Virus genome (UHGV): UHGV-0203498
Direction: 5' to 3' (one strand)
Source: a virus
Length of the DNA stretch: 32,670 bases
Both the position numbers and the translations under genes were made by a program. How positions within the stretch are numbered: the first letter of the stretch is position 1; every line of letters starts with the position of its first letter. The notes beneath the pieces were generated by a model. The model was given only the letters and a program-made list of their open reading frames with translations. It was not told the origin of the DNA and ran no database searches. Below are positions 2,451-16,920 of the stretch, one piece after another.

Positions 2451-3126
2451 TATGCGGGGTTTTGCTGCGCCATTTCATCGAGCGCGATTCGCTCCATTAG
2501 CTTGATATCTTTAAACGCACGTTGCTCGTTTTCGATGCCGTGCATCTTAAATAGCCATTCCAGTACGCCGTAGTCGATGCCGTATGCGCCACCGAATCCG
2601 GTGCGCCATTGCGTGGCGCAATCCGTGAATACGGCGACTATCTTCGCGTTGTCGGGCCATAGCGCAACAGGCGGACAAACATCTTCGGGGGCCGCGCCCC
2701 ATAAACTCGCGGCTAAATCCTCGGAGGGTGGCGGCGGGCCATAATAGCGTCGCGCCGCCTCAATTAGTTTTTTTCACGCAATCCCATCAGTTCGAGATAG
2801 TACGAGGTATGGAACACGCCGAACGCGCGCGGATAGTTGACTACCAGGCGGCGGACGTTCTCCGCATTAAATTCGTCCGGCAGATTCCAGCCTTCGGCGA
2901 CGTGCATGATGGCCTCGACCATAACGTTAAAGCCATCAGGGTCGTTGTCGTCATATTCCGATAGCTTGCGTTCCGTTTCCTGCATGGTCTGCGAAAACTC
3001 GTCAATCGGGCGGTGCCGGACGGTAAACGTCATCTTGCCTGGTTCGTTCTCGCCAGGGCGCGGGATCTCAATCGGCAGCTTAAAGGTTGGCTTAGGGTCG
3101 AGTGTGAAGAGTGGGGCTTTAGCCAT
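2451..3126 (-). CDS. Tail assembly chaperone frameshift fusion (gpGT-like), made by a programmed -1 shift at A AAA AAC (2767-2773)
   Basis: The -1 frame downstream of the heptamer is open for ~104 codons (KKLIEAARRYYGPPPPSEDLAASLWGAAPEDVCPP...MAQQNPA, stop at 2453..2451) and has no start codon of its own. This is the conserved G/GT arrangement upstream of tape measure genes. Confidence 0.55.
2764..3126 (-). CDS. Tail assembly chaperone (lambda gpG-like), 0-frame product
   Basis: ATG at 3126 is preceded by GGAG. Position is between the major tail gene and tape measure gene. The ORF ends in the slippery run GAA AAA AAC TAA. Confidence 0.6.
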   Translation of the reverse strand: MAKAPLFTLDPKPTFKLPIEIPRPGENEPGKMTFTVRHRPIDEFSQTMQETERKLSEYDDNDPDGFNVMVEAIMHVAEGWNLPDEFNAENVRRLVVNYPRAFGVFHTSYYLELMGLREKN

Positions 3127-3141
3127 TGTAATATTCTCCAA

Positions 3142-3166
3142 TAAAAAAGGGGCCGTGCTGGCCCCA
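3142..3166 (-). terminator. Rho-independent terminator after the major tail gene
   Basis: Minus strand reads GGGGCC-agcac-GGCCCC followed by TTTTTTATT (plus-strand stem 3149-3154 / 3160-3165, A-run 3143-3148). Confidence 0.6.
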
Positions 3167-3195
3167 TATTATCACTCGCTATTTACGCGACCAAA

Positions 3196-3921
3196 TCAGG
3201 CGAGTGCCTCAACCAGGTCTTTACGGTAAATAACCATATCTGACTGCATGGTCAGGGTGGCTTGTACCGTCTCCACGTTGTTTACTTCAGCGGACGGAAT
3301 CTTCTGGAAAGATACCTTCGCCGGGTAAATACGAATTTCACCTTTGCCGCTTGCTGCCGCTGGGTTAGTGAACTGGATCACAGTGGTTTTCTGTGTATCG
3401 TCCAGGTCTTCCAGGATTGGGCGGATCGGGTCTTCTTCGTCGTGGGTGAAGGTGTAAGTCTGGACCAACGGGTTTTTCGTGGTGTTAAGACTGATTGCGG
3501 TGTTCACCTGCAACGGCTGGAAGGTAGTCGTCTGCTGGTCGCCACCCGACACGGCAACGTTAGTGATAAACGGGAAGTCGATAAAGCTCGACACCTTCAC
3601 CACTTCGCCCGGTGTGCCAGAGCTAAAAGCGCCGGTAGGGTATTTGGTCACGTCCGAGGAGTCGAAGCGCGCCAGCGTCACGTCGTTCTCGGATACTTTA
3701 CCCACGATGAATGCGCGGTTAAGCGCTCGGACCCACGGGGTCTTAGTGAACATAACAACGTCGCCAACAACCAGGCCATGCGAAGCCGCACAGGTAATTA
3801 CGCAACCTTGCGTAAGGTCGGAGATCGACGCGGCGGCGTTGGTGGCTGCCGTAACAGCGATACCATTGCCTAATACGGATCCAATCTGGACGCTGGATCC
3901 ATTGGGAAGTTGGTAGCCCAA
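3196..3921 (-). CDS. Major tail protein (putative)
   Basis: 241-aa ORF directly upstream of the chaperone and tape measure genes. TTG start at 3921 is preceded by AGGAGG at 6-nt spacing. Followed by an intrinsic terminator, as expected for an abundantly expressed structural gene. Confidence 0.55.
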   Translation of the reverse strand: MGYQLPNGSSVQIGSVLGNGIAVTAATNAAASISDLTQGCVITCAASHGLVVGDVVMFTKTPWVRALNRAFIVGKVSENDVTLARFDSSDVTKYPTGAFSSGTPGEVVKVSSFIDFPFITNVAVSGGDQQTTTFQPLQVNTAISLNTTKNPLVQTYTFTHDEEDPIRPILEDLDDTQKTTVIQFTNPAAASGKGEIRIYPAKVSFQKIPSAEVNNVETVQATLTMQSDMVIYRKDLVEALA

Positions 3922-4036
3922 AATATCCTCCTAAATCAATAGATTACAGTATTTGCAACCTGAGACATTTCAGGTCTTGACTAATCATACCACCAACGGT
4001 ATTATCCACCAAAATCGTTAACCAACCGGAGCGGCT

Positions 4037-4630
4037 ATGCGTAAAGGCATTCTTTTTGAAGGCATGACATTTAGAGGCGTTACTTTGTTGCGTAAAGGGC
4101 CAGGCCTTAAGTGGTTCTGTTCTTGCCCCATATGCGGCAACGAGACACTTCGCACTAACGGCGCGCTATTGGATTTCATGAGAGGCGACACACTGCGTTG
4201 GGTATGTACTTGTTTTGGTAAGAAATCGCGGCACGGTATGACCGGAACTCCAACAATGCTGTCATGGCAAGGCATGATCCAGCGATGCCACAACCCCAAT
4301 GCAGCTAAATACGAAATATATGGCGGTCGAGGGATTACGGTGTGCGACCGCTGGCGAGTATTCAAGAACTTCCTGGAGGATATGGGGCCGCGTCCCAAGG
4401 GCACTACGTTAGACCGTATTGATCAGAATGGTAATTACGAAAAAAGCAACTGCCGTTGGGCTTCGCAAGCTACGCAAAACGATAATACAAGGCGCATTAT
4501 ACATGTTCGTTTTAATGGCGAGGTGTACAACTTAAAATCGGCTTGCAAAGCCGCGGGGGTTAATTACGACACCGTGCGCAAGAAATGGAAAAAAAGCGGT
4601 GAGATGTTCCACCGCTTCGAGATAGTCTAG
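4037..4630 (+). CDS. HNH-type homing endonuclease-like protein with N-terminal Cys cluster
   Basis: Opposite strand to the flanking tail genes. Cys cluster CSCPICGN...CTC, and a C-terminal region YEIYGGRGITVCDRW...TLDRIDQNGNYEKSNCRWASQATQNDN that resembles phage HNH endonuclease signatures. GGAG 7 nt before the ATG. Confidence 0.5.
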   Translation: MRKGILFEGMTFRGVTLLRKGPGLKWFCSCPICGNETLRTNGALLDFMRGDTLRWVCTCFGKKSRHGMTGTPTMLSWQGMIQRCHNPNAAKYEIYGGRGITVCDRWRVFKNFLEDMGPRPKGTTLDRIDQNGNYEKSNCRWASQATQNDNTRRIIHVRFNGEVYNLKSACKAAGVNYDTVRKKWKKSGEMFHRFEIV

Positions 4631-6657: not shown

Positions 6658-7752
6658 TTAGGACGCGGTGGTCGCAGTCAGAGTAACCAGTACGCCAGCC
6701 GTTTCTTTGATGTGTCGGGTCGGCACTGCCTGCGCGGCCTGGGTCTTACGACGGCCTTTAGTGTCGCTATCGCCGCCAACGTCCTGAACGGTTGCCGGTG
6801 CGTTGTCTACCTGGCCCTGGTCCAGTTCCCAGTTTGCGGAAGTGGTAATATCGCTCAGTTTGAACGAGCGCACACCTTCGATCGGGGTGCGGGCGGACGC
6901 CTTCAGACGGTAGCCTTTAACAGCCACGTTGAAGTCGAACTCACCCTGCCACCAACGTTCGATGTTCTCGTTACCGCCTTTTTCCTGCGCCAGCATATCA
7001 AGGCCGTTGGTGGTAACTGCAACCGCGCCAGGGACCAGACCCAGCATGTTACCAGTACCCATCGCATCGGCAGCGGCATCGGAGATAATGAAACGACGGC
7101 CCAGGCCATCACCCATTACCTGCAGATCGCCGATTGCGAATACCTGCTCTGCAGACGGGAGCGCCTGGTATGCAATGAAGTTTGCCCAGGTAACGCCGTC
7201 CATAAACCAGGATTTAATCAAAGACGCCTGATCGCCGAACTTAGAAGCCGCCAGCGGGAAGTCTGCCAGGGTAGGGAAGGTACGACCGCCCACACCATCA
7301 ACGCGCTCCGGTTGGGTGTATTTTGCCGCTGCGTTGCTCTCGATCGCCGCTTTACTTGCGCCGATACCGGCCTTCAGGTAATGCAGCATAATCGCTTGAG
7401 TAGCCTGTGCCGCAATCTCAGCCGCAACGCTGTTAACGTTGGTTTCGATCTTAGCCATCATAGCCTTAGTGATTGCAACCGGACCCACTTTCGCGGAGAG
7501 GTTGACCGAGTTGGTCAGCATACGCGCCAGCACTTTAGCGGTCGCCGGAGTACCGACAGGGGCATATGCGTTACGGTCGGTAACGAGGTTGGCGATCAAG
7601 CCTACGGACATTTTCTCTACAACGTCCTTCAGCACTTCACCTGTACCGAGAACAACAGCGCCGTTAGCGGCAGCGTTGAACACGTTCAGGTTGTCGGGGA
7701 TCATTTGCGTAACCGCGGTAACGAGTTTACGCTGGAACACTGTTAAAGACAT
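6658..7752 (-). CDS. Major capsid protein
   Basis: 364-aa ORF directly downstream of the scaffold gene, AAGGA RBS, followed by a strong intrinsic terminator. Size and composition fit a phage major capsid protein. Confidence 0.7.
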   Translation of the reverse strand: MSLTVFQRKLVTAVTQMIPDNLNVFNAAANGAVVLGTGEVLKDVVEKMSVGLIANLVTDRNAYAPVGTPATAKVLARMLTNSVNLSAKVGPVAITKAMMAKIETNVNSVAAEIAAQATQAIMLHYLKAGIGASKAAIESNAAAKYTQPERVDGVGGRTFPTLADFPLAASKFGDQASLIKSWFMDGVTWANFIAYQALPSAEQVFAIGDLQVMGDGLGRRFIISDAAADAMGTGNMLGLVPGAVAVTTNGLDMLAQEKGGNENIERWWQGEFDFNVAVKGYRLKASARTPIEGVRSFKLSDITTSANWELDQGQVDNAPATVQDVGGDSDTKGRRKTQAAQAVPTRHIKETAGVLVTLTATTAS

Positions 7753-7849: not shown

Positions 7850-8554
7850 TTACTCGTCGTCGCCCATTTTAGCGATGATATCACCTGCCTGTTTCGTCAG
7901 GTCCGTGATGCCAAAGCTATGGCCCATCGAGATTTTCGGCTTCGCATCTTCAATAACCTGTGTCGGTTTGCTCGGAGCGCCACCTGCTGGCGTGCCAGCC
8001 AGGACGGATGCAAAATCGGCGTTATTACGGAACTCTTTTTCAAGCTCTTCCATAGTAAGGGCGGACGGTTTGCCATCCTGCAATACCCGCACTTTCAAGC
8101 TGCCGTCTTCGCCGTCTTCCAGCGCGAGGCGGTCCATTACGTGGCGTTGCATGATGCCGGCGTTCTTGCCGAACAGCTTCGACGCCAGGTCTTTGGCAGC
8201 GCTGCCGATGGTTAGATCGTGGATCTGCTTGCGGTAGGCTTCGATTTTACCCGATGTGTCTGCTTCGTATTTTGCAAACTTATCCTTCCAGGATTTATCG
8301 ATCGCTTCAAGGTCGCCATTTTTGCGCGCGGCGGCTTCCTCTTTCTCTTTCGCAAGGCGCTCAGCTTCGGCGCGGCGTTCAGCTTCTGCTTTCTTCTCGC
8401 TCACCAGCTTCGCATTGTTGTCTTTCAGACCCTTAATTTCCGCCTGCACTTCGTCAGCGGTCATAAATGTTGACTTATACCCATCGCCATCGGCAACAAA
8501 AAGCGCCTTCATACCTTCCGGCAACGCGTCGTATTCTGCTTTGGTAAGTTTCAT
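7850..8554 (-). CDS. Scaffolding protein
   Basis: Start MKLTKAEYD at 8554 preceded by AGGGGGA. K/E/A-rich, coiled-coil-like composition (AEAERRAEAERLAKEKEEAAARK). Lies immediately upstream of the capsid gene. Confidence 0.6.
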   Translation of the reverse strand: MKLTKAEYDALPEGMKALFVADGDGYKSTFMTADEVQAEIKGLKDNNAKLVSEKKAEAERRAEAERLAKEKEEAAARKNGDLEAIDKSWKDKFAKYEADTSGKIEAYRKQIHDLTIGSAAKDLASKLFGKNAGIMQRHVMDRLALEDGEDGSLKVRVLQDGKPSALTMEELEKEFRNNADFASVLAGTPAGGAPSKPTQVIEDAKPKISMGHSFGITDLTKQAGDIIAKMGDDE

Positions 8555-8644
8555 GCTATCCCCCTGGGATTGTGGCAGAGCGGGCCACCCGCTCGACTTC
8601 ACGCTTCTAATATTATCAGTGGTAAAAATAATCGCAAAATTCGC

Positions 8645-8674
8645 TTGCAATCTGGGTGTTGGTTGCACTATATT
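8645..8674 (+). promoter_or_regulatory. Putative sigma70-like promoter for the DnaN-like moron (TTGCAA-N18-TATATT), overlapping TTGGTTGCAC motifs
   Basis: TTGCAA at 8645-8650 and TATATT at 8669-8674; TTGGTTGCAC copies at 8659-8668 and 8673-8682; palindrome TTGGT-N5-ACCAA at 8673-8687 just before the RBS. Confidence 0.4.
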
Positions 8675-8703
8675 GGTTGCACACCAACAACGAGGAAATG
8701 AAA

Positions 8704-9216
8704 ATGATTAGAGTTAACTATGCCGACCTTAAGGCTGCTACGATGTGCGCCGCTACTAATGACGTCCGATACTACCTAAATGGTGTATTTTTCGACGAGA
8801 AAGGATTCATCGTGTCGACCGACGGCCACCGTTTGTTCTGCGGGTCCGCGGTTGTTCCAGAAGGTGAAAGTAAAATAGTATCAATTAAAGGCCGCTTACC
8901 TACTAAATTCGAATACTGCAACATCGACGGCACCTCCGCAGCGTTCTTCGATAGTAAAGACGTATTAATAGATACCATACCCTGCGAGATTGTAGACGGA
9001 CGCTTTCCAGACTGGAGAAGAGTTACGTCTTTCGTCAGCAATACCGTGGAGGCTATTGGGTTTAACGGGGCATACCTGGCCGACGCCTGCAAAATTGCTA
9101 AATTGTTCGACCGTAAGTTTGAGGGCTTAAAACTGGAATTCCAGGGTGTAGACAAAGCAACACGCGTGCTGTACAAAGGAGGTGCCTTCTTAGTTATCAT
9201 GCCGATGCGTTTGTAG
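8704..9216 (+). CDS. Truncated DNA polymerase III beta sliding-clamp (DnaN) homolog, 170 aa
   Basis: Translation carries DnaN signatures in order: DVRYYLNGVFF, STDGHRLF, VDGRFPDWRRV, IGFNGAYLADA and C-terminal FLVIMPMRL (E. coli DnaN: DVRYYLNGMLF, ATDGHRLAV, VDGRFPDYRRV, IGFNVSYVLDV, YVVMPMRL). ATG at 8704 is 7 nt after GAGGA. Alone on the plus strand among minus-strand head genes. Confidence 0.75.
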   Translation: MIRVNYADLKAATMCAATNDVRYYLNGVFFDEKGFIVSTDGHRLFCGSAVVPEGESKIVSIKGRLPTKFEYCNIDGTSAAFFDSKDVLIDTIPCEIVDGRFPDWRRVTSFVSNTVEAIGFNGAYLADACKIAKLFDRKFEGLKLEFQGVDKATRVLYKGGAFLVIMPMRL

Positions 9217-9221
9217 TTACC

Positions 9222-9255
9222 AAAAAGGGGGCCATTACAGCCCCCGAATTATTTT
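9222..9255. terminator. Bidirectional intrinsic terminator between the DnaN-like gene and the o-spanin gene
   Basis: Stem GGGGGC (9227-9232) / GCCCCC (9240-9245) with loop CATTACA. Flanked by A5 upstream (U5 on the minus strand) and GAATTATTTT downstream. Confidence 0.55.
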
Positions 9256-9465
9256 CTGCAACTCCAGCACTTGCGCCCTTAGCATAGCCCCGCATTCCAT
9301 ATTTTTAACATCAACCAGCAAGTCTTCGTCTGGGTCTGCCGAGGCATTCTCAAAAGTGCAAGGCGGTCTATAGACCGACTCGGTTAGCGGCGTCAATGGC
9401 ACGTTGCTTGATCCGCACGCGCTCAGCATCAAAACTGCAATCAGTACGGTCAGGACGCGTAACAT
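9235..9465 (-). CDS. Putative o-spanin (outer-membrane lipoprotein, Rz1-like)
   Basis: Signal peptide with lipobox LSAC-GSS; small Pro-containing mature region with Cys residues. AAGAGG RBS. Its start lies inside the 3' end of the upstream membrane-protein gene in another frame (overlapped spanin architecture). Confidence 0.5.
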   Translation of the reverse strand: MLRVLTVLIAVLMLSACGSSNVPLTPLTESVYRPPCTFENASADPDEDLLVDVKNMECGAMLRAQVLELQKIIRGL

Positions 9466-9679
9466 ATTTTACAACCTCTTTCGTGATAGTCCGGTATTCC
9501 ACATCGCGGGCCTGTTCGGCCTGCACTGCCCCCTCGACAACCTTAGTTTGCTGCCGTTGGGCTTTCGCTTGCGCCGCTTTCTCCTCTTTCACCACAACGC
9601 CAGCGCGGTAGGAGTCACCCAGCCAGAAGCCAACTGCCAGGCCGATAATTAATCCAATCGCTGCGTATTTAATCACGCC
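9368..9679 (-). CDS. Putative i-spanin (Rz-like; N-terminal transmembrane segment plus charged helical periplasmic region)
   Basis: GTG start at 9679 gives MIKYAAIGLIIGLAVGFWLG (TM segment) followed by KEEKAAQAKAQRQQTKVVEGAVQAEQ. The o-spanin candidate is embedded in and extends beyond its 3' end. Start codon is uncertain (TTG at 9706 is also possible). Confidence 0.45.
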   Translation of the reverse strand, partial: GVIKYAAIGLIIGLAVGFWLGDSYRAGVVVKEEKAAQAKAQRQQTKVVEGAVQAEQARDVEYRTITKEVVKYVTRPDRTDCSFDAERVRIKQRAIDAANRVGL

Positions 9680-10772
9680 ATAACCCCCGGTTTTTAAGCT
9701 GTGCAATAGTCATTAACTCACCCGCATCGGTGAACATTTTCGGCACTTTCACGCCGCGCATAATCTGGTCAGCGCGCTGCACCCCGTATAACTCCTCCAG
9801 AATATGGCGCGGCTGGCGCTGCACCCATGAGAAGAAATCAGTCTGCGCGTCTACATGTTCACTCAGCAACCGACCCGCGTCAGCCTTCAGTGCCGGACGC
9901 TTACCACTGGGCCAGTCTTCCATGCCCTTAACTTTCCACGTCTCCGTCGAACGGCAGCAATAATGCAGCTTACCCGGACCAGCGCCATACTGCGATCCAG
10001 CCACCACTTTTCCGCCGCGCTTTCCTTTGGTCTCGGGAGTGACGTCCACAGGATAAAACAGGCGATCGCGTAGCTGGCACATAGGGGAGGTATGAGTGTC
10101 CAATGTAGCCAACCATTGGCGACCTTCGAGAATATCGTCATTTGCTTTCACCATTAATTCGCGGGCGGTCGCCGCATAGTGGTTGACTGCGGACTTAACC
10201 ACGCTTGAGATGGCCTGCGCACTACGACCGCCGAGCGCGCGCCTTACGTCCGCAATTATTTCCATAGTCGGCTTGCCCTGGATGAATCCAGCGCGCACCT
10301 GATTCCCGATCTGCGTCCTGGTCCACTCAGAGAGTGAGTCAGGCCATTGCATCATCGTATTACCCTGAAACGGGTTTTTCATAGCCGTCGCTGCGATCTG
10401 CGCGCCGGTTACTACGCTCACTACCTCAACAGCTGGAACGGCAACCGCTGGCTGGATCGCTGCCGTTAATGTGTTGGCGAGATAATCAGCCTCCGTGTCG
10501 GCGAACTCCTGAAGGCTTTCTGCCAGCGCCTTAAACTCGGTGCGCAGTTCTGTCTTAACGGTCTTGTCGAGTTGCGTCAACAGTGTGGTAAGCGCCTTGT
10601 TATTCATGGACTTTTTGCCATCAAGCAACTCGGTCAGCTTCCCCAGTAGCGTGGGCCGGAACTTCTCCCACATAGCCAGCACCCTTCGCGCCTGGTCATT
10701 GCTCAGGCGCTGGGTGAAAATGTGACGGCGGATCATGCGATCCGCCAGATGTTGATTAATCGTTCTCGCCAT
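9669..10772 (-). CDS. Head morphogenesis protein (Mu F / SPP1 gp7-like minor head protein)
   Basis: 367-aa ORF immediately downstream of the portal gene and overlapping it by 17 nt. Region WLATLDTHTSPMCQLRDRLFYP resembles the Mu F-family conserved core. Confidence 0.6.
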   Translation of the reverse strand: MARTINQHLADRMIRRHIFTQRLSNDQARRVLAMWEKFRPTLLGKLTELLDGKKSMNNKALTTLLTQLDKTVKTELRTEFKALAESLQEFADTEADYLANTLTAAIQPAVAVPAVEVVSVVTGAQIAATAMKNPFQGNTMMQWPDSLSEWTRTQIGNQVRAGFIQGKPTMEIIADVRRALGGRSAQAISSVVKSAVNHYAATARELMVKANDDILEGRQWLATLDTHTSPMCQLRDRLFYPVDVTPETKGKRGGKVVAGSQYGAGPGKLHYCCRSTETWKVKGMEDWPSGKRPALKADAGRLLSEHVDAQTDFFSWVQRQPRHILEELYGVQRADQIMRGVKVPKMFTDAGELMTIAQLKNRGLWRD

Positions 10773-12276
10773 TGTCCGCTACCTTGTCCGGGTCTTCTTC
10801 GGTAGATTCTACCGCATCAGGTGACATTTGAGGCAATGGATTCTGATTTCGCAATTCGTCTTCCACCTGCTCGACGGTTTGCGAGTCGTCGATGACGCCC
10901 TGCGCCATCATCCACTTGATGAAATCAGCCAGGCGGACCGTACCAGTCTGCACACCCGACATCATCGCTGTCATAAGCTGCGCATCAACCGTGATTTCGG
11001 TGTAGAACTTGTTCAGCGTCACTCGCTGGTCCGCGGTGTCTCCAGTGAATAGCTGGACAATTTGCAGCGCACGGTTGAAAGCCTTCTCAACGTTACCGGC
11101 AATAAGTGACAGGATACTGTTATCAGTCTGCGCGTCGTAGGCCGCTTCTGTTGCCGTCTTAGGTGCAGTCCCCTTCTCAACCAGGGCCGCGCCAAGTTTA
11201 GCCATTTGCAACTCGCGGCGCTCGCACAACGCTACCGACAAGTTGCGCTCCTCGGCCTGGAGCAGTTTAGCGTCCATGTTCTGGCCCAGGATAACGCCCT
11301 TAGTTGCACCGAGAGCAATGCCACCCTTCAGGTTTTTGTCCGCCCATGATTGCGTCAGGCCCGTGGTGACAAGGGTCGGCTGGCCCACAATGTGCGCGAT
11401 CTCGGCAACGTCCGCTTCGGCGTTGTAGTGCTTAATATTGATAGACGCAATATCCGCCAGCGGCGCGGCGTCAGGCGATGCGTTGTTGTCCACCGCGCCA
11501 CACCAGCAAAATGGCAGTTGAGTAAGCGCGTTACCGGCTGCGTCCACCAACGGTACAAGGTCGGTTCGGGTGAAGCCACGCGGCAGGTCCATTTGCACCT
11601 CGGACGTGTCAGCGTTGTAAAACCAGCGGCGGGCGTGTGCCTTGCCGTCAATCATGCGAAGCTCGGTCCAGATGGTTACTTCGTGGTTTGCGAAGTCGTC
11701 CGGGTCTTCGGTGCTGATTTCGTCCGTTTCCTTCAGCACGATTAGCGTATCGACCCCGTGGGTCTGCCGCCAGTTGATGATCTGTTCTGCCGTATACAGG
11801 CGGATAAGCGGGCGGTGCGCAGCCATCTCGGCGGCGGTCTGCGGCACTACGTTACCCAGTTCGTCAAAGTTGGCCTGGTGGTCGTAGTCCACCATAAAGC
11901 CAGCGCGGCCAGATTGCAGCACTTCCGACATAGCACCGCGCAGGAGTTGCGGCAACGGCATACCGCTGCCGTCTACGTCATCAATCAGGTCAGCCATCGC
12001 CCCGGAAAGGTCCAGACTTACCGGTTTTGCAAAGGCAACGCCCAACAGCGCGTTAAGTGTGCGAGCGGTGGCGTTCAGGAATACAGCGCGTTGCTTATAC
12101 GCCTTATACCGCGCCCGTGATTTCGGGTCAGTATTGTCGCCGCTGGCGGGATGTGGCAGATACAAAGGGCCGCACGCCTTCACGGCGCGCTCCCCTGCTA
12201 CACAATCCCGGATCATTTTCCACTCTGGCGCGATGCGCGCATAAAGCGGGTGCTGGTTGTCAACGTTAACGGTCAT
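10756..12276 (-). CDS. Portal protein
   Basis: 506-aa ORF directly downstream of the large terminase gene; AAGGAA RBS; acidic C-terminus. Size and position fit a portal. Confidence 0.65.
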   Translation of the reverse strand: MTVNVDNQHPLYARIAPEWKMIRDCVAGERAVKACGPLYLPHPASGDNTDPKSRARYKAYKQRAVFLNATARTLNALLGVAFAKPVSLDLSGAMADLIDDVDGSGMPLPQLLRGAMSEVLQSGRAGFMVDYDHQANFDELGNVVPQTAAEMAAHRPLIRLYTAEQIINWRQTHGVDTLIVLKETDEISTEDPDDFANHEVTIWTELRMIDGKAHARRWFYNADTSEVQMDLPRGFTRTDLVPLVDAAGNALTQLPFCWCGAVDNNASPDAAPLADIASINIKHYNAEADVAEIAHIVGQPTLVTTGLTQSWADKNLKGGIALGATKGVILGQNMDAKLLQAEERNLSVALCERRELQMAKLGAALVEKGTAPKTATEAAYDAQTDNSILSLIAGNVEKAFNRALQIVQLFTGDTADQRVTLNKFYTEITVDAQLMTAMMSGVQTGTVRLADFIKWMMAQGVIDDSQTVEQVEDELRNQNPLPQMSPDAVESTEEDPDKVADNGEND

Positions 12277-12286
12277 GTTCGTTTCC

Positions 12287-13672
12287 TTAGTAGAAGTCTA
12301 CAGTTGGAACAACGGCGATTGGGCGAATCACAGGGAACAAGTGCGCAATTGGATAGCCCGCTGCATCGTTCATGTGGTCCACTCCGGCGGTTTTATCCGG
12401 CTCGCCTTTCTTCAGGTCGTAAACCTGCTGTTCCAGGCATTTCGCTAGTGTAGGGCATTTATCCAGGTTGACAAAATACTGGCGCACGCCCTTCGAGTTG
12501 CACATCATCGTATTCATCGCGATCAATCGGTCTTTCACAGGCGGGTTAACGCTGTCATATTCCACCTCGAAGCCTGCGTCTTCCAGTTGCGCGATATCTG
12601 ACGAAGAGGCGTTAACCGTCTTACGCGACTTGCCGCTGCTATCCGGGTAAACGACAACCCGACCGGCAGCACAATGATCGGGGTAGCGCTCCTCGATCGC
12701 CTCAATCATAGCCGGGGTGTCAAACAGGTCCACAAATTCATCCACTGCGTGGATTTCGTCGCGGAACTCCTTGTTCTCGGTAGTGCGCTGCCGTCTGACG
12801 TACACAACCGCAGCCATTTTCGTGACGTTAAAGTCCATACCAATAATCAACGTGTCATCCGGTTGCACTTCTTCGGTGCTGGCGTTCTCCTCACGGTTGA
12901 ACATCTTGTATACTGCGCCCGACGTAAGGTTGACAAACAGGCCGTTCAGGTACGCATCAATCAGGTTAGCCGGGTACTGACTGCGCAGCGTGTCGATAAA
13001 GTCTGCCGGTAGGTGGTGGTTATCGGTGGTCTTCGCCCGGATCAAACGCTTCTGGCTATCCTTCTCCACTTCAAAAATCTGGTACATCGCCCGGTAGCCT
13101 TCAGGCGTGGATACGATGACAAACTGGCGCACCAGACCCGCACGCAGACGACCAAGCAATTTGTGATACGCCGCAATTGCGACGTCCTGCTTAGTAGTGT
13201 CGAACTCATCGGCAACAATCCACGCGGCGTTAACACCGATAAGGCGGGTATAGTTCTCCATTGACTCACAAATAACGCGCGTCCATTTGCCTTTCACCAG
13301 CACGCTATAAATCTTGTCCTGCTTGTTGAACTTCCACCGGAAGCCAGCCTCGTCGAAAGCCTTCTCCAGCTCCGGATACATGATTTTAACCAGGAGTGGG
13401 ATAGTCGGCTCGGTCACGATGCCGTCATGACCAGGGTTCAGTGTCAGAAGCTGGATGACCTTACGTGCTGCAACCCATGACTTACCACCACCGAAGCCGG
13501 AACACAGACCGAGGATTTTAGTCTTAGTGTCCCGCAGTAGTTCCACCTGGTGCGGAAGGCAATCAGGCTGATACAGGCGGACGGCCTGTGCAACTCGCGT
13601 TGGGCGTGGCGGTCGGTTGCGCTTTGCGATCGCGCGTTCCAGGGCGCGGTGTTCTGCCGCATAGTTGCGCAT
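12287..13672 (-). CDS. Terminase large subunit
   Basis: Walker A GLCSGFGGGKSW and Walker B-like IVADEFD; 461 aa; its start overlaps the small-subunit stop (TAATG). Confidence 0.85.
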   Translation of the reverse strand: MRNYAAEHRALERAIAKRNRPPRPTRVAQAVRLYQPDCLPHQVELLRDTKTKILGLCSGFGGGKSWVAARKVIQLLTLNPGHDGIVTEPTIPLLVKIMYPELEKAFDEAGFRWKFNKQDKIYSVLVKGKWTRVICESMENYTRLIGVNAAWIVADEFDTTKQDVAIAAYHKLLGRLRAGLVRQFVIVSTPEGYRAMYQIFEVEKDSQKRLIRAKTTDNHHLPADFIDTLRSQYPANLIDAYLNGLFVNLTSGAVYKMFNREENASTEEVQPDDTLIIGMDFNVTKMAAVVYVRRQRTTENKEFRDEIHAVDEFVDLFDTPAMIEAIEERYPDHCAAGRVVVYPDSSGKSRKTVNASSSDIAQLEDAGFEVEYDSVNPPVKDRLIAMNTMMCNSKGVRQYFVNLDKCPTLAKCLEQQVYDLKKGEPDKTAGVDHMNDAAGYPIAHLFPVIRPIAVVPTVDFY

Positions 13673-14223
13673 TACTCACCCTGGCCTTTGCCTGTAGGTT
13701 CGACAACGACGTCGCCGTTATCATCTTCGTCATCATCCAGCGGAATATCGTCGCGGACGCCGTGGTTGGCTTTAAGCAGGAACGTAGCGAAGCCCGCCGC
13801 GATGGTGACGCCGCCAGCTTCCATCAGGAAAGTTTTCTGCAATTCCATAGCGTCCGCCATCGCCTCGGCGAACTCCTCATGTGCGCGCGCCCAGCGGTAC
13901 AGGCAGGCGATGCCAACCCCAATATCCGCAGCAAAGCGACCGAGAGTCGGCATCTTGTGGCGGGGAATGACTTGCGCAGCGCCCTTGTCGGAGTAGTTGA
14001 TCTGCCAGGCTACGGCATCGGCAAAATAGCGGCGAAGCTGGTCGCAATACACAGTGCGGTAGTCTGTCGGGCGCCCACATTTGCCGCCTTTACGACGCTT
14101 GCCATATTCGATCTCAGGTCCAAGATTGGTATGTTCGGTTTGCTCGCCTGGTTTACGGCGCGGGGTGACTGCCACTCGACCGTCCAGTTTGGCACGACGG
14201 CCCTTAACTCTGATTTCTGCCAT
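13672..14223 (-). CDS. Terminase small subunit
   Basis: Directly upstream of the large subunit gene. N-terminal basic DNA-binding-like region GRPTDYRTVYCDQLRRYF and an acidic C-terminus. Start taken at ATG 14223; ATG 14244 is also possible. Confidence 0.65.
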   Translation of the reverse strand: MAEIRVKGRRAKLDGRVAVTPRRKPGEQTEHTNLGPEIEYGKRRKGGKCGRPTDYRTVYCDQLRRYFADAVAWQINYSDKGAAQVIPRHKMPTLGRFAADIGVGIACLYRWARAHEEFAEAMADAMELQKTFLMEAGGVTIAAGFATFLLKANHGVRDDIPLDDDEDDNGDVVVEPTGKGQGE

Positions 14224-14353
14224 GATATAAGCCCTTTTATGCATATGCGCCGACCATCGGCAACATAGGAGACGGCCCTGCCATCTAAGGGGGATTATAA
14301 CAGGCACAAAAAAGCCCACCAAATCGGCAGGCTGGGAGGCTTACGGGTTGCCG

Positions 14354-15496
14354 TTACTTCAACATTTCCGGGCTAATGGTTAAGCGCGCTACTTCGCCGT
14401 AATTGGCGCTGTAGGTGATGACGTTGGCACTACGACCGGACATCCAACCGCCGCGGCTTGCATATGCGTCTTTCGCGGCGAGCGTCCGGTGCTGCTCAAC
14501 AATCATGTTACGGGATTCTACAATCTTCTGGTGGTGCAAGTGACCGACATGCGCGTAACTGTACTCGCTTTCGCCAAATGCTTTTCTGAACTTAGCAATC
14601 ATAACCGTCTCGATTGCATCAAAGCGTGCTTTGTGTCCGTGGTGGAAAAACAGCGTGGTTTTACCGTGCCGCACCATCTTGTATACGTCCGGGGACGTGT
14701 CAACATCGACGCGCGGCTCGTTCTCATACAGGGTATTGAACATCTCCGCAAGCCAAATCATACCAGACTCGTCATGGTTGCCCTGGACAATTAGCAGTTT
14801 GACTTTGTGGTGCTTTTGCAGCGCCAGATCAACCACGTTGCGCACCATGCGAATCATGTAGCGCACCAACTTCTGGTATCGGGTGTCCGCGTCCAGAATG
14901 TGACCACTTGCCGGAGTGACGGCATCGAGGCTGTCAAAGTGCGCCATATCCCCGAGGATATTGATTACGGCAGTTCCTGCGTCTGGTGCGCGGGCGAATG
15001 CTTCGACAAACCAGCGGTAGAACAGATCTTCGGCGATTGCCATATCCCAGTCTTCGCCAGTCTCCTCGCCCCATGCCAGCATTCCCAGGTGGAAGTCTGA
15101 CACTGTGTACAGGTTGAGTAGGTCAAGTGCCTGGATCGGGACTGGCGGGGCGCTAACTGGTGCTGCCGGTGTGATTTCGCTGTTCATACCCTCGACAACA
15201 GCGCGCATTGCTTCGAGTTGGCGCTCCTTGTCCTGCTCGGTGATAACCCATGACATGACCTCCTCGCCATTGCCACGCACCAGGGCGGAGACACGCTTGA
15301 CGCCGAATCCATCGGCAACGCGCTTACGGATCACAGCATCGTTGCCGTGTCCAATACCTTTCTTCGACAGTCTGGCTTTGCGCATGTAGACATTCCGAAG
15401 AGCAATGCCGTATTTCTTCGCAATCTCTTTCGATGTAGTGCCAGCTTGCAATTCAGCGATTAATTGCTCGTCGGTAATTTTAGTTTGCGGGTGCAT
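14354..15496 (-). CDS. Helix-turn-helix domain fused to a calcineurin-like metallophosphoesterase (SbcD/Mre11-like motif set)
   Basis: N-terminal HTH-like ITDEQLIAELQAGTTSKEIAKKYGIALRNVYMRKARL. Metallophosphoesterase motifs SDFHLG, GDMAHFD, VQGNHDE, FHHGH and GHLHH. Confidence 0.7.
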   Translation of the reverse strand: MHPQTKITDEQLIAELQAGTTSKEIAKKYGIALRNVYMRKARLSKKGIGHGNDAVIRKRVADGFGVKRVSALVRGNGEEVMSWVITEQDKERQLEAMRAVVEGMNSEITPAAPVSAPPVPIQALDLLNLYTVSDFHLGMLAWGEETGEDWDMAIAEDLFYRWFVEAFARAPDAGTAVINILGDMAHFDSLDAVTPASGHILDADTRYQKLVRYMIRMVRNVVDLALQKHHKVKLLIVQGNHDESGMIWLAEMFNTLYENEPRVDVDTSPDVYKMVRHGKTTLFFHHGHKARFDAIETVMIAKFRKAFGESEYSYAHVGHLHHQKIVESRNMIVEQHRTLAAKDAYASRGGWMSGRSANVITYSANYGEVARLTISPEMLK

Positions 15497-15722: not shown

Positions 15723-15893
15723 TTACGCCTCCGGTCCTGCCGGTGGTTCCGGTGCCGCTGGTTCTGGCAGCTTCGCATCAAAGACACCCGCATGACTGAT
15801 AGTGTCAGCGATAATGGCGCGTGCGCCAGGGTCTTCGGTTTTAGCCAGCGCGGCGAGCGCGTCGGCGTTATGATCAAGAATGCTTTTTAACAT
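15723..15893 (-). CDS. Small hypothetical protein (56 aa) downstream of the endolysin gene
   Basis: ATG at 15893 preceded by GAGGAG at 7-nt spacing; sequence MLKSILDHNADALAALAKTEDPGARAIIADTISHAGVFDAKLPEPAAPEPPAGPEA. Confidence 0.45.
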   Translation of the reverse strand: MLKSILDHNADALAALAKTEDPGARAIIADTISHAGVFDAKLPEPAAPEPPAGPEA

Positions 15894-15909
15894 ACTGTGT
15901 CTCCTCGTA

Positions 15910-16401
15910 TTACACTGCGTTACGTCCAATTTTCTCGGCAACGTCCCACTGCTTACCATCGAATAGTGCCTGCCTGCCGATTGCACGACGGACAAGCCCC
16001 TTGAGCACTACCCCGCCTTGCTTGCGGAATTGTGGCAGTGTAGCTCGCACCTTAGCCCAGTCACCCAGTCGCACCGCATCGTCGAAGTCACCGGCTACGT
16101 CGTCCGGCATGACCGGACCCGGGCCAGCATTGATAACCAGGTCCACCAGCGCGTCGAATTGCGCCTGATTAATGCTCGGGTGTGCGTACTTGTTAACCCA
16201 GTTCTCGGCATACGCCACATCGCGCTTGAGTAGCTCCAGCGCTTCCGCTCGGGTAATGCTTCGAGGCGGGTTCGTGCCAGTATGCCCATAGCCCCAGGTG
16301 TACAGGCCGCGTGCCTGCTCTTTCTTAGTCGCGAAATACGGCACTGGGCTGAATTGCTCCCATGCTGCCGTAAATCTTAGACCGTTGTCACTGAATCGCA
16401 T
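15910..16401 (-). CDS. Endolysin, phage lysozyme (GH24-like)
   Basis: N-terminal region AAWEQFSPVPYF...GLYTWGYGHTGT matches the catalytic-Glu and GYGHT region of T4/P22-type lysozymes. Its start overlaps the upstream holin-like stop (ATGCGATTCAGTGA). Confidence 0.8.
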   Translation of the reverse strand: MRFSDNGLRFTAAWEQFSPVPYFATKKEQARGLYTWGYGHTGTNPPRSITRAEALELLKRDVAYAENWVNKYAHPSINQAQFDALVDLVINAGPGPVMPDDVAGDFDDAVRLGDWAKVRATLPQFRKQGGVVLKGLVRRAIGRQALFDGKQWDVAEKIGRNAV

Positions 16402-16633
16402 GTTTTACCCCATTCAAAACAGCATTACGCAGTGTGCGCAATGCAAATAACCAGATTAACGCGGCCCAGGTGGCGTCAGATACGTCTCCTGTTTGCAACA
16501 GACCCACAATACAGGTCATTGCCGTTAGCAGATATAACACCCGACCGAAGAAGCCATCCTGGACGGATGGCGCGTACACGTTAAACAGGGACGACGCCCC
16601 AATAATCACAAACAACAGGACGGTGAACATCAT
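16388..16633 (-). CDS. Holin / antiholin-like membrane protein (two predicted TM segments)
   Basis: Start MMFTVLLFVIIGASSLF at 16633 overlaps the upstream stop (AAATGATG). Hydrophobic segments, located directly upstream of the endolysin gene. Confidence 0.55.
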   Translation of the reverse strand: MMFTVLLFVIIGASSLFNVYAPSVQDGFFGRVLYLLTAMTCIVGLLQTGDVSDATWAALIWLFALRTLRNAVLNGVKHAIQ

Positions 16634-16920
16634 TTTGCGCCCCCCGGAAGGCTGACGGACGCAATTGCCTCCCTGATCCGGGCTGCGATTGGCATCCAAA
16701 AGATCGCGGTTACGAAGCCCAATCCGGCAACAGTGCGCTCACCAGATAAGCCAGCCCACTCGGCAATCGCTGGCGCACCGAAAATGGCGCACAAGAAGCC
16801 GACCACGATATATAACACAAAGTTTAATGGCCCTTTCGTGGCCTCGCCATGAATGCGAGCGCCAACGAAGCCCCCAGCGAGACATGCAAGGGCGAATAAC
16901 CACTCGTTCAGCTTATCCAT
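16630..16920 (-). CDS. Holin-like membrane protein (about three predicted TM segments)
   Basis: 96 aa with hydrophobic segments LFALACLAGGFVGA, FVLYIVVGFLCAIFGAPAI and LGFVTAIFWMPIA; first gene of the holin-endolysin cassette. Confidence 0.55.
   Translation of the reverse strand: MDKLNEWLFALACLAGGFVGARIHGEATKGPLNFVLYIVVGFLCAIFGAPAIAEWAGLSGERTVAGLGFVTAIFWMPIAARIREAIASVSLPGGAK

What the first reader, a model, noticed from the sequence alone, without database searches (positions are those of the whole stretch)
9235..9679. Overlapped spanin-like gene pair located ~6 kb from the holin-endolysin cassette
An N-terminal TM protein with a charged helical region contains, in another frame, a lipobox lipoprotein gene that extends past its stop; this is the classic overlapped i-spanin/o-spanin architecture. 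It sits between head morphogenesis genes rather than next to the holin and endolysin at 15910-16920. Either the lysis genes are split, or this pair has another role such as superinfection exclusion by an outer-membrane lipoprotein.
Basis: partly seen in the sequence, partly recalled or inferred. Interest (0 to 1): 0.5.

Follow-up and report, generated by a model that had tools for sequence, protein, structure and literature searches.

The report
Known spanin pair in Dhillonvirus phage
This is a real pair of overlapping phage genes for the two proteins (spanins) thought to break the host's outer membrane at the end of lysis; it is ordinary, because the same pair at the same odd position among the head genes is already catalogued in closely related E. 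coli phages.

Summary
On the minus strand, a 102-aa protein with an N-terminal membrane anchor (9368-9676, GTG start) overlaps by 98 nt a 76-aa lipoprotein gene in the +1 frame (9235-9465, lipobox LSAC, Cys17) that runs past its stop.

- **Both frames are coding.** Across 16 distinct related sequences, third-position diversity switches from the i-frame to the o-frame at the expected boundary. It is the only lipobox ORF in the window, against 0.02 expected by chance.
- **The phage is a Dhillonvirus** (HK578/SO-1/EP23 group). The pair hits the PHROG "Rz-like spanin" families 2536 and 5672. It is annotated i-/o-spanin in TheodorHerzl and SO-1, and close relatives are listed in the "Jersey" overlapped spanin family of Kongari et al. 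2018.
- **The position is shared with other genera.** The pair lies between the head-morphogenesis and scaffold genes, 6.2 kb from the holins and endolysin, as it does in the Jerseyvirus, Kagunavirus, AH01 and phiEap-2 records checked.
- **Distant homologues sit in lysis cassettes.** In phages ZX4 and Mulvp2 the homologous pair directly follows lysozyme and holin-like genes.
- **Nothing supports superinfection exclusion.**

The spanin function rests on homology and architecture; I found no experiment on this family. Verdict: already known, low interest.

The parts
9368..9676 (-). i-spanin gene (102 aa, GTG start, TAG stop). It has an N-terminal transmembrane anchor at about residues 4-20, and an 81-aa charged periplasmic domain containing the invariant motif V68, Y71, P75, R77, C80.
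   Evidence: ORF and sequence. phrog_2536 'Rz-like spanin', E=8.6e-35. Hydropathy and composition. Purifying selection in this frame. Family alignment A1. Low-confidence AF2 model with helices at 5-72 and 82-99.
9235..9465 (-). o-spanin gene (76 aa, ATG start, TAA stop), in the +1 frame relative to the i-spanin. It has a lipoprotein signal with lipobox LSAC (Cys17, Gly at +2) and a 60-aa mature part with invariant C36, D46, E47, C58 and Q70.
   Evidence: ORF. phrog_5672 'Rz-like spanin', E=1.8e-24. It is the only lipobox ORF in the window, against 0.02 expected. It is intact in all relatives. Position-3 diversity in this frame downstream of the overlap. Alignment A2. Low-confidence AF2 model with a linker at 19-49 and a C-terminal helix at 50-75.
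9368..9465 (-). The 98-nt stretch read in both frames: the i-spanin C-terminus and the o-spanin signal sequence with the start of the mature protein.
   Evidence: Coordinates. It has the lowest nucleotide diversity of the three segments, 0.079 against 0.118 and 0.128.
9669..9676 (-). An 8-nt overlap between the stop of the head-morphogenesis gene and the GTG start of the i-spanin. This suggests co-transcription and possibly translational coupling with the late head operon (inferred).
   Evidence: Sequence. The same arrangement is annotated in TheodorHerzl and SO-1.
9227..9245 (.). A GC-rich hairpin with T-runs on both strands, resembling a bidirectional intrinsic terminator. It overlaps the o-spanin stop codon and lies between the o-spanin and the convergent + strand gene.
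   Evidence: Consensus scan. The number of such sites in the region is not above shuffles, so this is a pattern match only. Terminators are annotated after the o-spanin in Ent1 and in the WFI and PTXU06 records.
15910..16401 (-). Endolysin, a soluble phage lysozyme. It is the partner lysis gene, 6.2 kb upstream on the same strand.
   Evidence: PF00959, E=3.8e-20; phrog_7.
16388..16699 (-). Holin-family gene. The probable true start is the ATG at 16633, which overlaps the stop of the upstream holin.
   Evidence: phrog_2508 holin, E=2e-26, matching residues 23-102.
16630..16920 (-). Holin-family gene.
   Evidence: phrog_2359 holin, E=9.3e-31.

Best explanation
The pair is the two-component spanin of a Dhillonvirus siphophage, a member of the already described 'Jersey' family of overlapped spanins.

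**Inferred mechanism** (from the established lambda Rz/Rz1 model, not shown here).
1. The 102-aa i-spanin is anchored in the inner membrane by its N-terminal helix and extends a mostly helical, charged domain into the periplasm.
2. The 76-aa o-spanin is lipidated at Cys17 and sorted to the inner leaflet of the outer membrane. The Gly at +2 gives no inner-membrane retention signal.
3. The two bind through their C-terminal regions to form a bridge across the periplasm.
4. The bridge is probably stabilised as covalent homodimers through the invariant periplasmic cysteines (C80 in the i-spanin; C36 and C58 in the o-spanin).
5. The complexes accumulate harmlessly during late gene expression, because the peptidoglycan mesh restrains them.
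6. Once the holins (16388-16920) release the lysozyme (15910-16401) and the wall is degraded, the spanins disrupt the outer membrane, most likely by fusing it with the inner membrane. This completes lysis.

**Position.** Spanins need only late expression and no co-regulation with the holin, so the gene pair can sit anywhere in the late region. Here it is joined to the end of the head-morphogenesis gene. That position is shared with the Jerseyvirus and Kagunavirus records examined.
For: **Shown here.**
- The architecture and signals are present.
- Both frames are under purifying selection.
- The lipobox ORF is unique in the window, with 0.02 expected by chance.
- Both proteins hit PHROG spanin families: 2536 at 8.6e-35 and 5672 at 1.8e-24.
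- The region is about 92% identical in DNA to Dhillonviruses. These annotate the same ORFs as i-/o-spanin (TheodorHerzl) or Rz-like spanin (SO-1 RefSeq).
- Kongari et al. 2018 (PMC6139136) list EP23, HK578, JL1, SSL-2009a, SO-1 and EK99P-1 in the Jersey overlapped i- and o-spanin families. They describe the shorter EP23-to-SO-1 subfamily and two constant o-spanin cysteines.
- The periplasmic cysteines are invariant across eight diverged family members.
- In Klebsiella phage ZX4 and Enterobacter phage Mulvp2 the homologous overlapped pair follows a PF00959 lysozyme and a small holin-like membrane protein. The i-spanin is 36% identical (pairwise E=2e-16) and the o-spanin 29% identical (E=3e-8) to Mulvp2. 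ZX4 hits both PHROG families; in Mulvp2 only the o-ORF was scanned against PHROGs.
- There is no other spanin candidate in the window. The ORF after the endolysin has no membrane signal.
- A paper on Dhillonvirus P78 counts the distant Rz-like spanin gene 0040 as part of the lysis system with holins 0031 and 0032 and endolysin 0033 (PMC12677095).
- A Jerseyvirus annotation paper reports the same PHROG pairs split in the same way (PMC9409062).
Against: - I found no experiment on any member of this spanin family in the searchable library. Function rests on architecture, homology and gene neighbourhood.
- There is no Pfam hit to the lambda Rz or Rz1 families. The only curated-model hint, NCBIfam P2_Rz1, is far below threshold at E=0.069 and 13.3 bits against a cut-off of 27.
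- PHROG family names are themselves derived from annotations.
- The structure models are low confidence (pLDDT 59.5 and 55.7). No model of the complex could be made.
- The mature o-spanin has only 8% proline. From memory, lambda Rz1 is far more proline-rich.
Confidence: 0.9

Rival explanations
1. The lipoprotein, with or without its membrane partner, acts in superinfection exclusion or receptor masking. T5 Llp and the Cor proteins of phi80 and N15 are phage lipoproteins that block the receptor used by the phage. On this reading the pair is not a lysis function.
For: - The pair is not next to the holin and endolysin.
- No curated Pfam or NCBIfam spanin model is matched above threshold.
Against: - From established knowledge, Llp and Cor are single lipoprotein genes placed beside receptor-binding or tail genes. 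Here the lipoprotein gene is always overprinted on a type II membrane protein gene.
- Homologues sit directly after lysozyme and holin-like genes in ZX4 and Mulvp2.
- There are no PADLOC hits, and no Pfam hit to any exclusion family at E<=0.1.
- The window holds no other spanin candidate, and the annotations listed for related genomes name no other spanin. Without this pair these Gram-negative phages would have no identified outer-membrane disruptor.
- Dhillonviruses are virulent in the cited characterisations, and the gene sits in the late head operon.
Confidence: 0.04
2. The pair is a membrane-associated accessory of head assembly or DNA packaging. This would explain its conserved place between the head-morphogenesis (SPP1 gp7-like) and scaffold genes.
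For: - The position inside the head module is shared by the Dhillonvirus, Jerseyvirus, Kagunavirus, AH01 and phiEap-2 records checked.
- The start codon overlaps the stop of the head-morphogenesis gene.
Against: - Head assembly is cytoplasmic, whereas both proteins are predicted to be almost entirely periplasmic.
- In ZX4 the pair travels with the endolysin and holin, and in Mulvp2 it lies at a genome end next to the lysozyme, far from head genes.
- The slot also accepts unrelated morons on the opposite strand, so it behaves as a permissive insertion site rather than a functional head-gene position.
Confidence: 0.03
3. The lipoprotein ORF is a chance open frame within and after a real membrane-protein gene, and is not expressed.
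For: - It is short, and several GenBank records leave it unannotated or call it hypothetical.
Against: - It is intact in every relative examined, and the lipobox Cys and two further Cys are invariant down to 17-23% identity.
- The third-position excess of variation lies in its frame in the 133 nt beyond the i-spanin stop.
- A lipobox ORF is expected 0.02 times per window by chance.
- A good AGAGG Shine-Dalgarno sits 9 nt upstream of its ATG.
Confidence: 0.01

Closest known systems
'Jersey' family of overlapped two-component spanins, EP23/HK578/SO-1 subfamily (Kongari et al. 2018, PMC6139136)
   Same: - The i-spanin is 81-89% identical in protein to Dhillonvirus homologues, and the o-spanin up to 96%.
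- The architecture is the same overlapped one, and the short i-spanin has two helices and a linker.
- The two o-spanin cysteines are constant.
- The pair matches the same PHROGs, 2536 and 5672, as Jerseyvirus SeF1.
- The genomic position is the same.
   Different: Nothing of substance. This copy has the 102-aa i-spanin C-terminal variant rather than the 109-aa one, and the o-spanin ends in Leu rather than Pro.
Lambda Rz/Rz1, the prototype two-component spanin
   Same: - A type II inner-membrane protein with a helical periplasmic domain is paired with an outer-membrane lipoprotein encoded in the +1 frame of the same DNA.
- Both have periplasmic cysteines.
- The presumed mechanism is the same.
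   Different: - No sequence homology is detectable with the Pfam models.
- Rz1 is fully embedded in Rz, whereas here the o-gene runs past the i-gene stop.
- The lambda genes are the last genes of the S-R-Rz/Rz1 cassette, whereas here they lie 6.2 kb away.
- The i-spanin is shorter and the mature o-spanin longer (60 aa), with a predicted C-terminal helix and fewer prolines. The lambda values are from memory.
P2 LysB/LysC
   Same: The gene architecture is overlapped: the o-spanin starts inside the i-spanin gene and extends beyond it (architecture class per PMC6139136).
   Different: - There is only a sub-threshold resemblance to the NCBIfam P2_Rz1 model (E=0.069).
- From memory, the P2 genes sit in the lysis cassette.
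T4 PseT.3/PseT.2
   Same: [quoted passage not shown] 8 legend).
- The o-spanin is comparatively large and has a predicted C-terminal helix.
   Different: - The T4 genes are separated rather than overlapped.
- They belong to a different sequence family in the tables of PMC6139136. I did not compare the sequences directly.

Membership tests
Two-component spanin (i-spanin/o-spanin) | The i-spanin is a small type II inner-membrane protein with a single N-terminal transmembrane domain and the rest periplasmic. | tested here: met
   The hydrophobic maximum is at residues 1-17 (KD 1.97), with Lys3 before it. An 81-aa domain with 36% charged residues follows. This is hydropathy only; no dedicated topology predictor was available.
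Two-component spanin (i-spanin/o-spanin) | The periplasmic domain of the i-spanin is predominantly alpha-helical or coiled-coil, with a linker. | tested here: inconclusive
   The single-sequence AF2 model gives helices at 5-72 and 82-99 with a break at 73-81, but mean pLDDT is 59.5. This agrees with the published description of the EP23-to-SO-1 subfamily.
Two-component spanin (i-spanin/o-spanin) | The o-spanin is a small outer-membrane lipoprotein, with a signal sequence, a lipobox with Cys, and no inner-membrane retention residue at +2. | tested here: met
   The sequence is MLRVLTVLIAVLMLSA-C17-G. The Cys is invariant in 8 diverged homologues. Lipidation and localisation themselves are not testable here.
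Two-component spanin (i-spanin/o-spanin) | The o-spanin gene is embedded in, overlaps, or immediately follows the i-spanin gene. | tested here: met
   The overlap is 98 nt in the +1 frame, and the o-gene extends 133 nt beyond the i-gene stop.
Two-component spanin (i-spanin/o-spanin) | Periplasmic cysteines are available for intermolecular disulfide bonds (near-universal per PMC6139136). | tested here: met
   C80 in the i-spanin, and C36 and C58 in the o-spanin, are all invariant across the family. Disulfide formation was not tested.
Two-component spanin (i-spanin/o-spanin) | Genetic linkage to holin and endolysin. This is usual but not defining, since T4 lacks it. | tested here: not met
   The pair is 6.2 kb from the endolysin in this window. 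The criterion is met by homologues in ZX4 and Mulvp2.
Two-component spanin (i-spanin/o-spanin) | The pair is required for outer-membrane disruption: spherical-cell arrest without it, and complementation of lambda Rz/Rz1 mutants. | not testable with these tools
   This needs experiments. None on this family were found in the library.
Jersey spanin family (Kongari et al. 2018) | Sequence similarity to listed members such as HK578, EP23, SO-1 and Jersey-like phages. | tested here: met
   - The i-spanin is 86% identical to the IMG/VR contig L007, which has the same length and i-spanin sequence as SO-1, and 86% to EK99P-1.
- tblastn reaches the Jerseyvirus and Kagunavirus members SETP13, Ent1 and K1ind3.
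- phrog_2536 and phrog_5672 are shared with Jerseyvirus SeF1.
Lambda Rz (PF03245) / Rz1 (PF06085) sequence families | A match to the Pfam models above the gathering threshold. | tested here: not met
   No Pfam family was reported for the o-protein at E<=0.1. The i-protein gave only a sub-threshold DUF6919 hit. The accession numbers are from memory. The pair therefore works like Rz/Rz1 but is not a detectable sequence homologue.
Superinfection-exclusion lipoproteins (Llp/Cor type) | A stand-alone lipoprotein gene next to the receptor-binding or tail genes, with homology to known exclusion or defence families. | tested here: not met
   The gene is always paired with and overprinted on a type II membrane protein gene. 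It lies in the head module. There are no PADLOC or Pfam hits. PADLOC may not contain Llp or Cor models.

The most novel reading that the evidence does not exclude
The consistent embedding of this spanin cassette between the head-morphogenesis and scaffold genes in the Dhillonvirus and Guernseyvirinae records examined might be more than a historical accident. In Dhillonviruses its start codon overlaps the stop of the head gene. Possible readings are that spanin dosage is set by translational coupling to a head protein, or that the outer-membrane lipoprotein has a second role, for example excluding superinfecting phage late in infection. The evidence here does not exclude either, but nothing positively supports them.
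Probability: 0.04. Interest if true: 0.45.

Novelty: already known. Interest (0 to 1): 0.08.

Why it matters
It matters little beyond correct annotation. The pair completes the lysis gene set (two holins, endolysin, spanins) of a Dhillonvirus, and it shows that a sequence-only reader can pick out overprinted spanins correctly.

Two modest practical points follow:
- Many GenBank records of this group and of relatives leave the o-spanin, or both spanins, unannotated or called hypothetical. Examples are ZX4, Mulvp2, the phiEap-2 GenBank record and many Dhillonvirus records.
- No member of this widespread family, found in about 650 phage records, appears to have been tested experimentally. A simple knockout or lambda complementation in a BASEL Dhillonvirus would convert a large block of inferred annotations into tested ones.

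Tried and rejected
- **Curated models.** Pfam, NCBIfam and PADLOC scans of both proteins gave no supra-threshold family. The only hits were a sub-threshold P2_Rz1 match at E=0.069 and lipoprotein-signal matches. The link to spanins therefore rests on PHROGs, on close homologues and on the literature.
- **Structure prediction.** Single-sequence AlphaFold2 of both proteins gave low-confidence models (pLDDT 59.5 and 55.7). I use them only as weak secondary-structure indications and ran no fold search. A complex model was not possible with the tools.
- **TTG start at 9706.** I considered this for the i-spanin (112 aa) and rejected it. It lies inside the upstream gene, relatives are annotated from the GTG, and the GTG has a Shine-Dalgarno sequence.
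- **ORF after the endolysin.** I considered whether 15723-15995 (probably 15723-15893, phrog_11068) could be a unimolecular spanin. It has no lipobox and no hydrophobic segment.
- **Literature.** Searches for experimental work on this family found only annotation-level statements.
- **Large searches not run.** I did not run the large protein-database searches, the metagenome or genome scans, or a cluster look-up, because the answer was already clear from the phage collection.
Full report
**What is in the sequence**

The finding lies on the minus strand. The ORF list and the raw sequence show two overlapping ORFs.

The first spans 9368-9676. Its GTG start is at 9676-9674, preceded by GGGGG seven bases upstream, and its stop is TAG. 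It encodes 102 aa: MIKYAAIGLIIGLAVGFWLGDSYRAG...RVGL. The mechanical ORF extends to a TTG at 9706, but that lies inside the upstream gene. Related genomes annotate the GTG. The GTG overlaps the TAA stop of the upstream 367-aa gene (9669-10772) by 8 nt.

The second spans 9235-9465. Its ATG is preceded by AGAGG nine bases upstream, and its stop is TAA. It encodes 76 aa: MLRVLTVLIAVLMLSACGSS...IIRGL. It is in the +1 frame relative to the first ORF, begins 98 nt before that ORF's stop and continues 133 nt beyond it.

**Protein features**

- The 102-aa protein has its most hydrophobic 17-residue window at the extreme N-terminus (KD 1.97), with one Lys before it.
- It is followed by an 81-aa stretch with 36% charged residues and a single Cys (C80).
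- The 76-aa protein has a signal sequence ending in the lipobox L-S-A-C17, with Gly at +2.
- Its 60-aa mature part has five prolines and two more cysteines (C36, C58).
- Single-sequence AlphaFold2 models are low confidence (pLDDT 59.5 and 55.7).
- Those models give a long helix at 5-72, a break at 73-81 and a second helix at 82-99 for the first protein.
- For the second they give a signal helix, an unstructured stretch at 19-49 and a C-terminal helix at 50-75. I use these only as weak support for 'charged helical region'.

**Is it more than chance?**

A six-frame scan of the whole 32,670-base window for ORFs with a basic N-terminus, a hydrophobic core and a lipobox finds exactly one, this one. 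The mean is 0.02 per shuffled window over 100 shuffles.

I collected the homologous 442-nt segment from 16 further loci: TheodorHerzl, SO-1 and 14 IMG/VR contigs. With the window this gives 16 distinct sequences with no indels, and both ORFs are intact in all of them.

Mean pairwise diversity by segment and codon position:

| Segment | Overall | Position 3 | Positions 1 and 2 | Frame used for codon positions |
|---|---|---|---|---|
| Upstream of the overlap | 0.118 | 0.231 | 0.081, 0.044 | i-frame |
| Overlap | 0.079 | not applicable | not applicable | both frames |
| Beyond the i-ORF stop | 0.128 | 0.238 | 0.084, 0.059 | o-frame |

The switch in third-position variation between frames, with the lowest diversity in the overlap, means that both frames encode selected proteins.

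**Context**

The window is a Dhillonvirus, a siphophage of the HK578/SO-1/EP23 group. Region 8600-10800 is about 92% identical in DNA to vB_EcoS-101114BS4 and matches 158 phage records, nearly all from Escherichia.

On the minus strand, reading from high to low coordinates, the genes are:

| Coordinates | Gene | Evidence |
|---|---|---|
| 16630-16920 | holin-family protein | phrog_2359 |
| 16388-16699 | holin-family protein | phrog_2508 |
| 15910-16401 | soluble lysozyme | PF00959, E=3.8e-20 |
| 15723-15995 | small ORF, function unknown | phrog_11068 |
| 14354-15496 | exonuclease-like protein | phrog_704 |
| 13672-14322 | terminase | phrog_3064 |
| 12287-13672 | terminase large subunit | phrog_10250 |
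| 10756-12276 | portal | phrog_145 |
| 9669-10772 | head-morphogenesis protein | phrog_241 |
| 9235-9676 | the pair | phrog_2536, phrog_5672 |
| 7850-8668 | scaffold | phrog_206 |
| 6658-7752 | major head protein | phrog_247 |

A convergent + strand gene (8656-9216) lies between the pair and the scaffold gene. The lysis genes are therefore split by 6.2 kb of packaging and portal genes, but they all point the same way.

A GC-rich hairpin with T-runs on both sides (9227-9245) overlaps the o-ORF stop. The scan does not find more such sites than in shuffles, so this is only a pattern match. Terminators are, however, annotated at the equivalent place in Ent1 and in two Dhillonvirus records.

**What it is**

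Both proteins match PHROG families named 'Rz-like spanin': phrog_2536 at E=8.6e-35 and phrog_5672 at E=1.8e-24. The same ORFs are annotated i-spanin and o-spanin in phage TheodorHerzl, and Rz-like spanin in the SO-1 RefSeq record.

Kongari et al. 2018 (PMC6139136) list EP23, HK578, JL1, SSL-2009a, SO-1 and EK99P-1 in the 'Jersey' family of overlapped i-spanins and o-spanins. They describe a shorter EP23-to-SO-1 subfamily with two helices and a linker. They also note two constant cysteines in the o-spanins. A 2025 paper on Dhillonvirus P78 counts a distant 'Rz-like spanin' (gene 0040) with holins 0031 and 0032 and endolysin 0033 as the lysis system (PMC12677095). A Jerseyvirus annotation paper reports the same PHROG pairs split in the same way (PMC9409062).

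tblastn finds i-spanin relatives in 664 phage records and o-spanin relatives in 643. In the annotated hits that were listed, the names are spanin, Rz-like, lysis protein, signal-peptide protein or hypothetical, never another function.

**Independent support from gene neighbourhood**

The position between the head-morphogenesis and scaffold genes is not special to this phage. It is the same in Jerseyvirus vB_SenS-Ent1, Kagunavirus K1ind3, Pantoea phage AH01 and Enterobacter phage phiEap-2.

Two more distant relatives carry the pair in a classical lysis cassette.
- **Klebsiella phage ZX4.** The order is lysozyme (PF00959, E=1.1e-41), holin (phrog_13249), i-spanin (phrog_2536, E=3.8e-35), then an unannotated overlapped lipoprotein ORF with lipobox ISGC (phrog_5672).
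- **Enterobacter phage Mulvp2.** An unannotated overlapped pair follows a lysozyme and a small membrane protein. The i-spanin is 36% identical (E=2e-16) and the o-spanin 29% identical (E=3e-8) to the window proteins.

Alignments of eight diverged members keep V68, Y71, P75, R77 and C80 invariant in the i-spanin. They keep C17, C36, D46, E47, C58 and Q70 invariant in the o-spanin. That is the lipidation cysteine plus all periplasmic cysteines.

**How it most likely works**

By analogy with lambda Rz/Rz1 (established knowledge, not shown here), the i-spanin is anchored in the inner membrane. The o-spanin is lipidated and sorted to the outer membrane. The two bind through their C-terminal regions and form disulfide-linked homodimers, and the bridge is held in check by the peptidoglycan mesh. 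When holin and endolysin destroy the wall, the complexes disrupt the outer membrane, probably by membrane fusion.

Spanins only need to accumulate late and are inert until the wall is gone. Nothing therefore requires them to sit beside the holin. T4 is the textbook precedent. I put 0.9 on this explanation. The residual doubt is that I found no experiment on this family.

**Rivals**

- **Superinfection exclusion by the lipoprotein** has no positive support. There are no PADLOC or Pfam hits. The lipoprotein gene is always overprinted on a type II membrane protein gene. Homologues travel with lysozyme and holin. The window contains no other spanin candidate.
- **A head-assembly role** conflicts with the periplasmic topology and with the ZX4 and Mulvp2 contexts.
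- **A spurious lipoprotein ORF** is excluded.

**Comparison and novelty**

The pair is a member of the Jersey spanin family, EP23/HK578/SO-1 subfamily. It works like lambda Rz/Rz1 but is not a detectable sequence homologue of it: there is no Pfam hit, and the NCBIfam P2_Rz1 match is only E=0.069. It shares the overlapped architecture with P2 LysB/LysC, and the unlinked position with T4 PseT.3/PseT.2.

Verdict: real, correctly interpreted, already known; interest 0.08.

Noticed in passing
window 8656-9216 (+); probable start at the ATG at 8698: A gene on the opposite strand lies between the o-spanin and the scaffold gene. It encodes a roughly 172-aa protein resembling part of the DNA polymerase III beta clamp. 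All hits are below curated thresholds: PF02767 central domain E=2.4e-5, and TIGR00663 E=1.6e-7 over model positions 124-247. It also matches phrog_3007. It has a promoter-like site at 8645-8674 and shares the hairpin at 9227-9245 with the o-spanin. SO-1 annotates it as a possible moron. Its function is unknown.
   Followed up: partly
window about 8670-9235, and the equivalent slot in relatives: The slot between the o-spanin and the scaffold gene varies among Dhillonviruses.
- Only 16 of 158 records cover at least 80% of window 8600-10800. Many cover about 76%.
- Some carry a 'nucleotide modification associated protein' there, as in SECphi18. In SMA8 the Nmad5 gene (CDS7) lies two genes before the scaffold gene (CDS9). 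A mutation in that gene lets the phage escape the Tmn defence (PMC11846954).
- Others have about 0.8 kb of extra small ORFs.
- ZX4, AH01 and phiEap-2 also have reverse-strand small genes around the spanin pair.
   Followed up: partly
window 9368-9390, and L001, L008-L013, L015, L016, L018 and L019 at the same place: The i-spanin C-terminus is polymorphic among Dhillonviruses. There is a 102-aa form ending ...NRVGL (this window, SO-1) and a 109-aa form ending ...NGVGTATAVQVR. The difference comes from the position of the stop codon inside or just after the overlap. This agrees with the published remark that the extreme C-terminus is variable.
   Followed up: no
L020 3068-3313 (ZX4); L005 about 3980-4348 and 4203-4451 (Mulvp2); L022 within 2975-3268 (phiEap-2, KT287080.2): Spanin genes are missing from the public annotations. 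The o-spanin of Klebsiella phage ZX4, both spanins of Enterobacter phage Mulvp2, and the o-spanin in the phiEap-2 GenBank record are intact ORFs with lipoboxes but are not annotated.
   Followed up: yes
window 16388-16920 (-): There are two tandem holin-family genes (phrog_2359 and phrog_2508). The second probably starts at the ATG at 16633, which overlaps the first gene's stop. They precede a lysozyme with no N-terminal membrane segment. The same holin PHROG pair occurs in Jerseyvirus SeF1.
   Followed up: partly
window 15723-15893 (-), within ORF 15723-15995: A small ORF of about 56 aa starts a few bases downstream of the endolysin stop. It matches phrog_11068 (unknown function, E=4.9e-32) and has an Ala/Pro-rich C-terminus, with no hydrophobic segment or lipobox. 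It occupies the place where a spanin would normally sit. Its function is unknown.
   Followed up: partly
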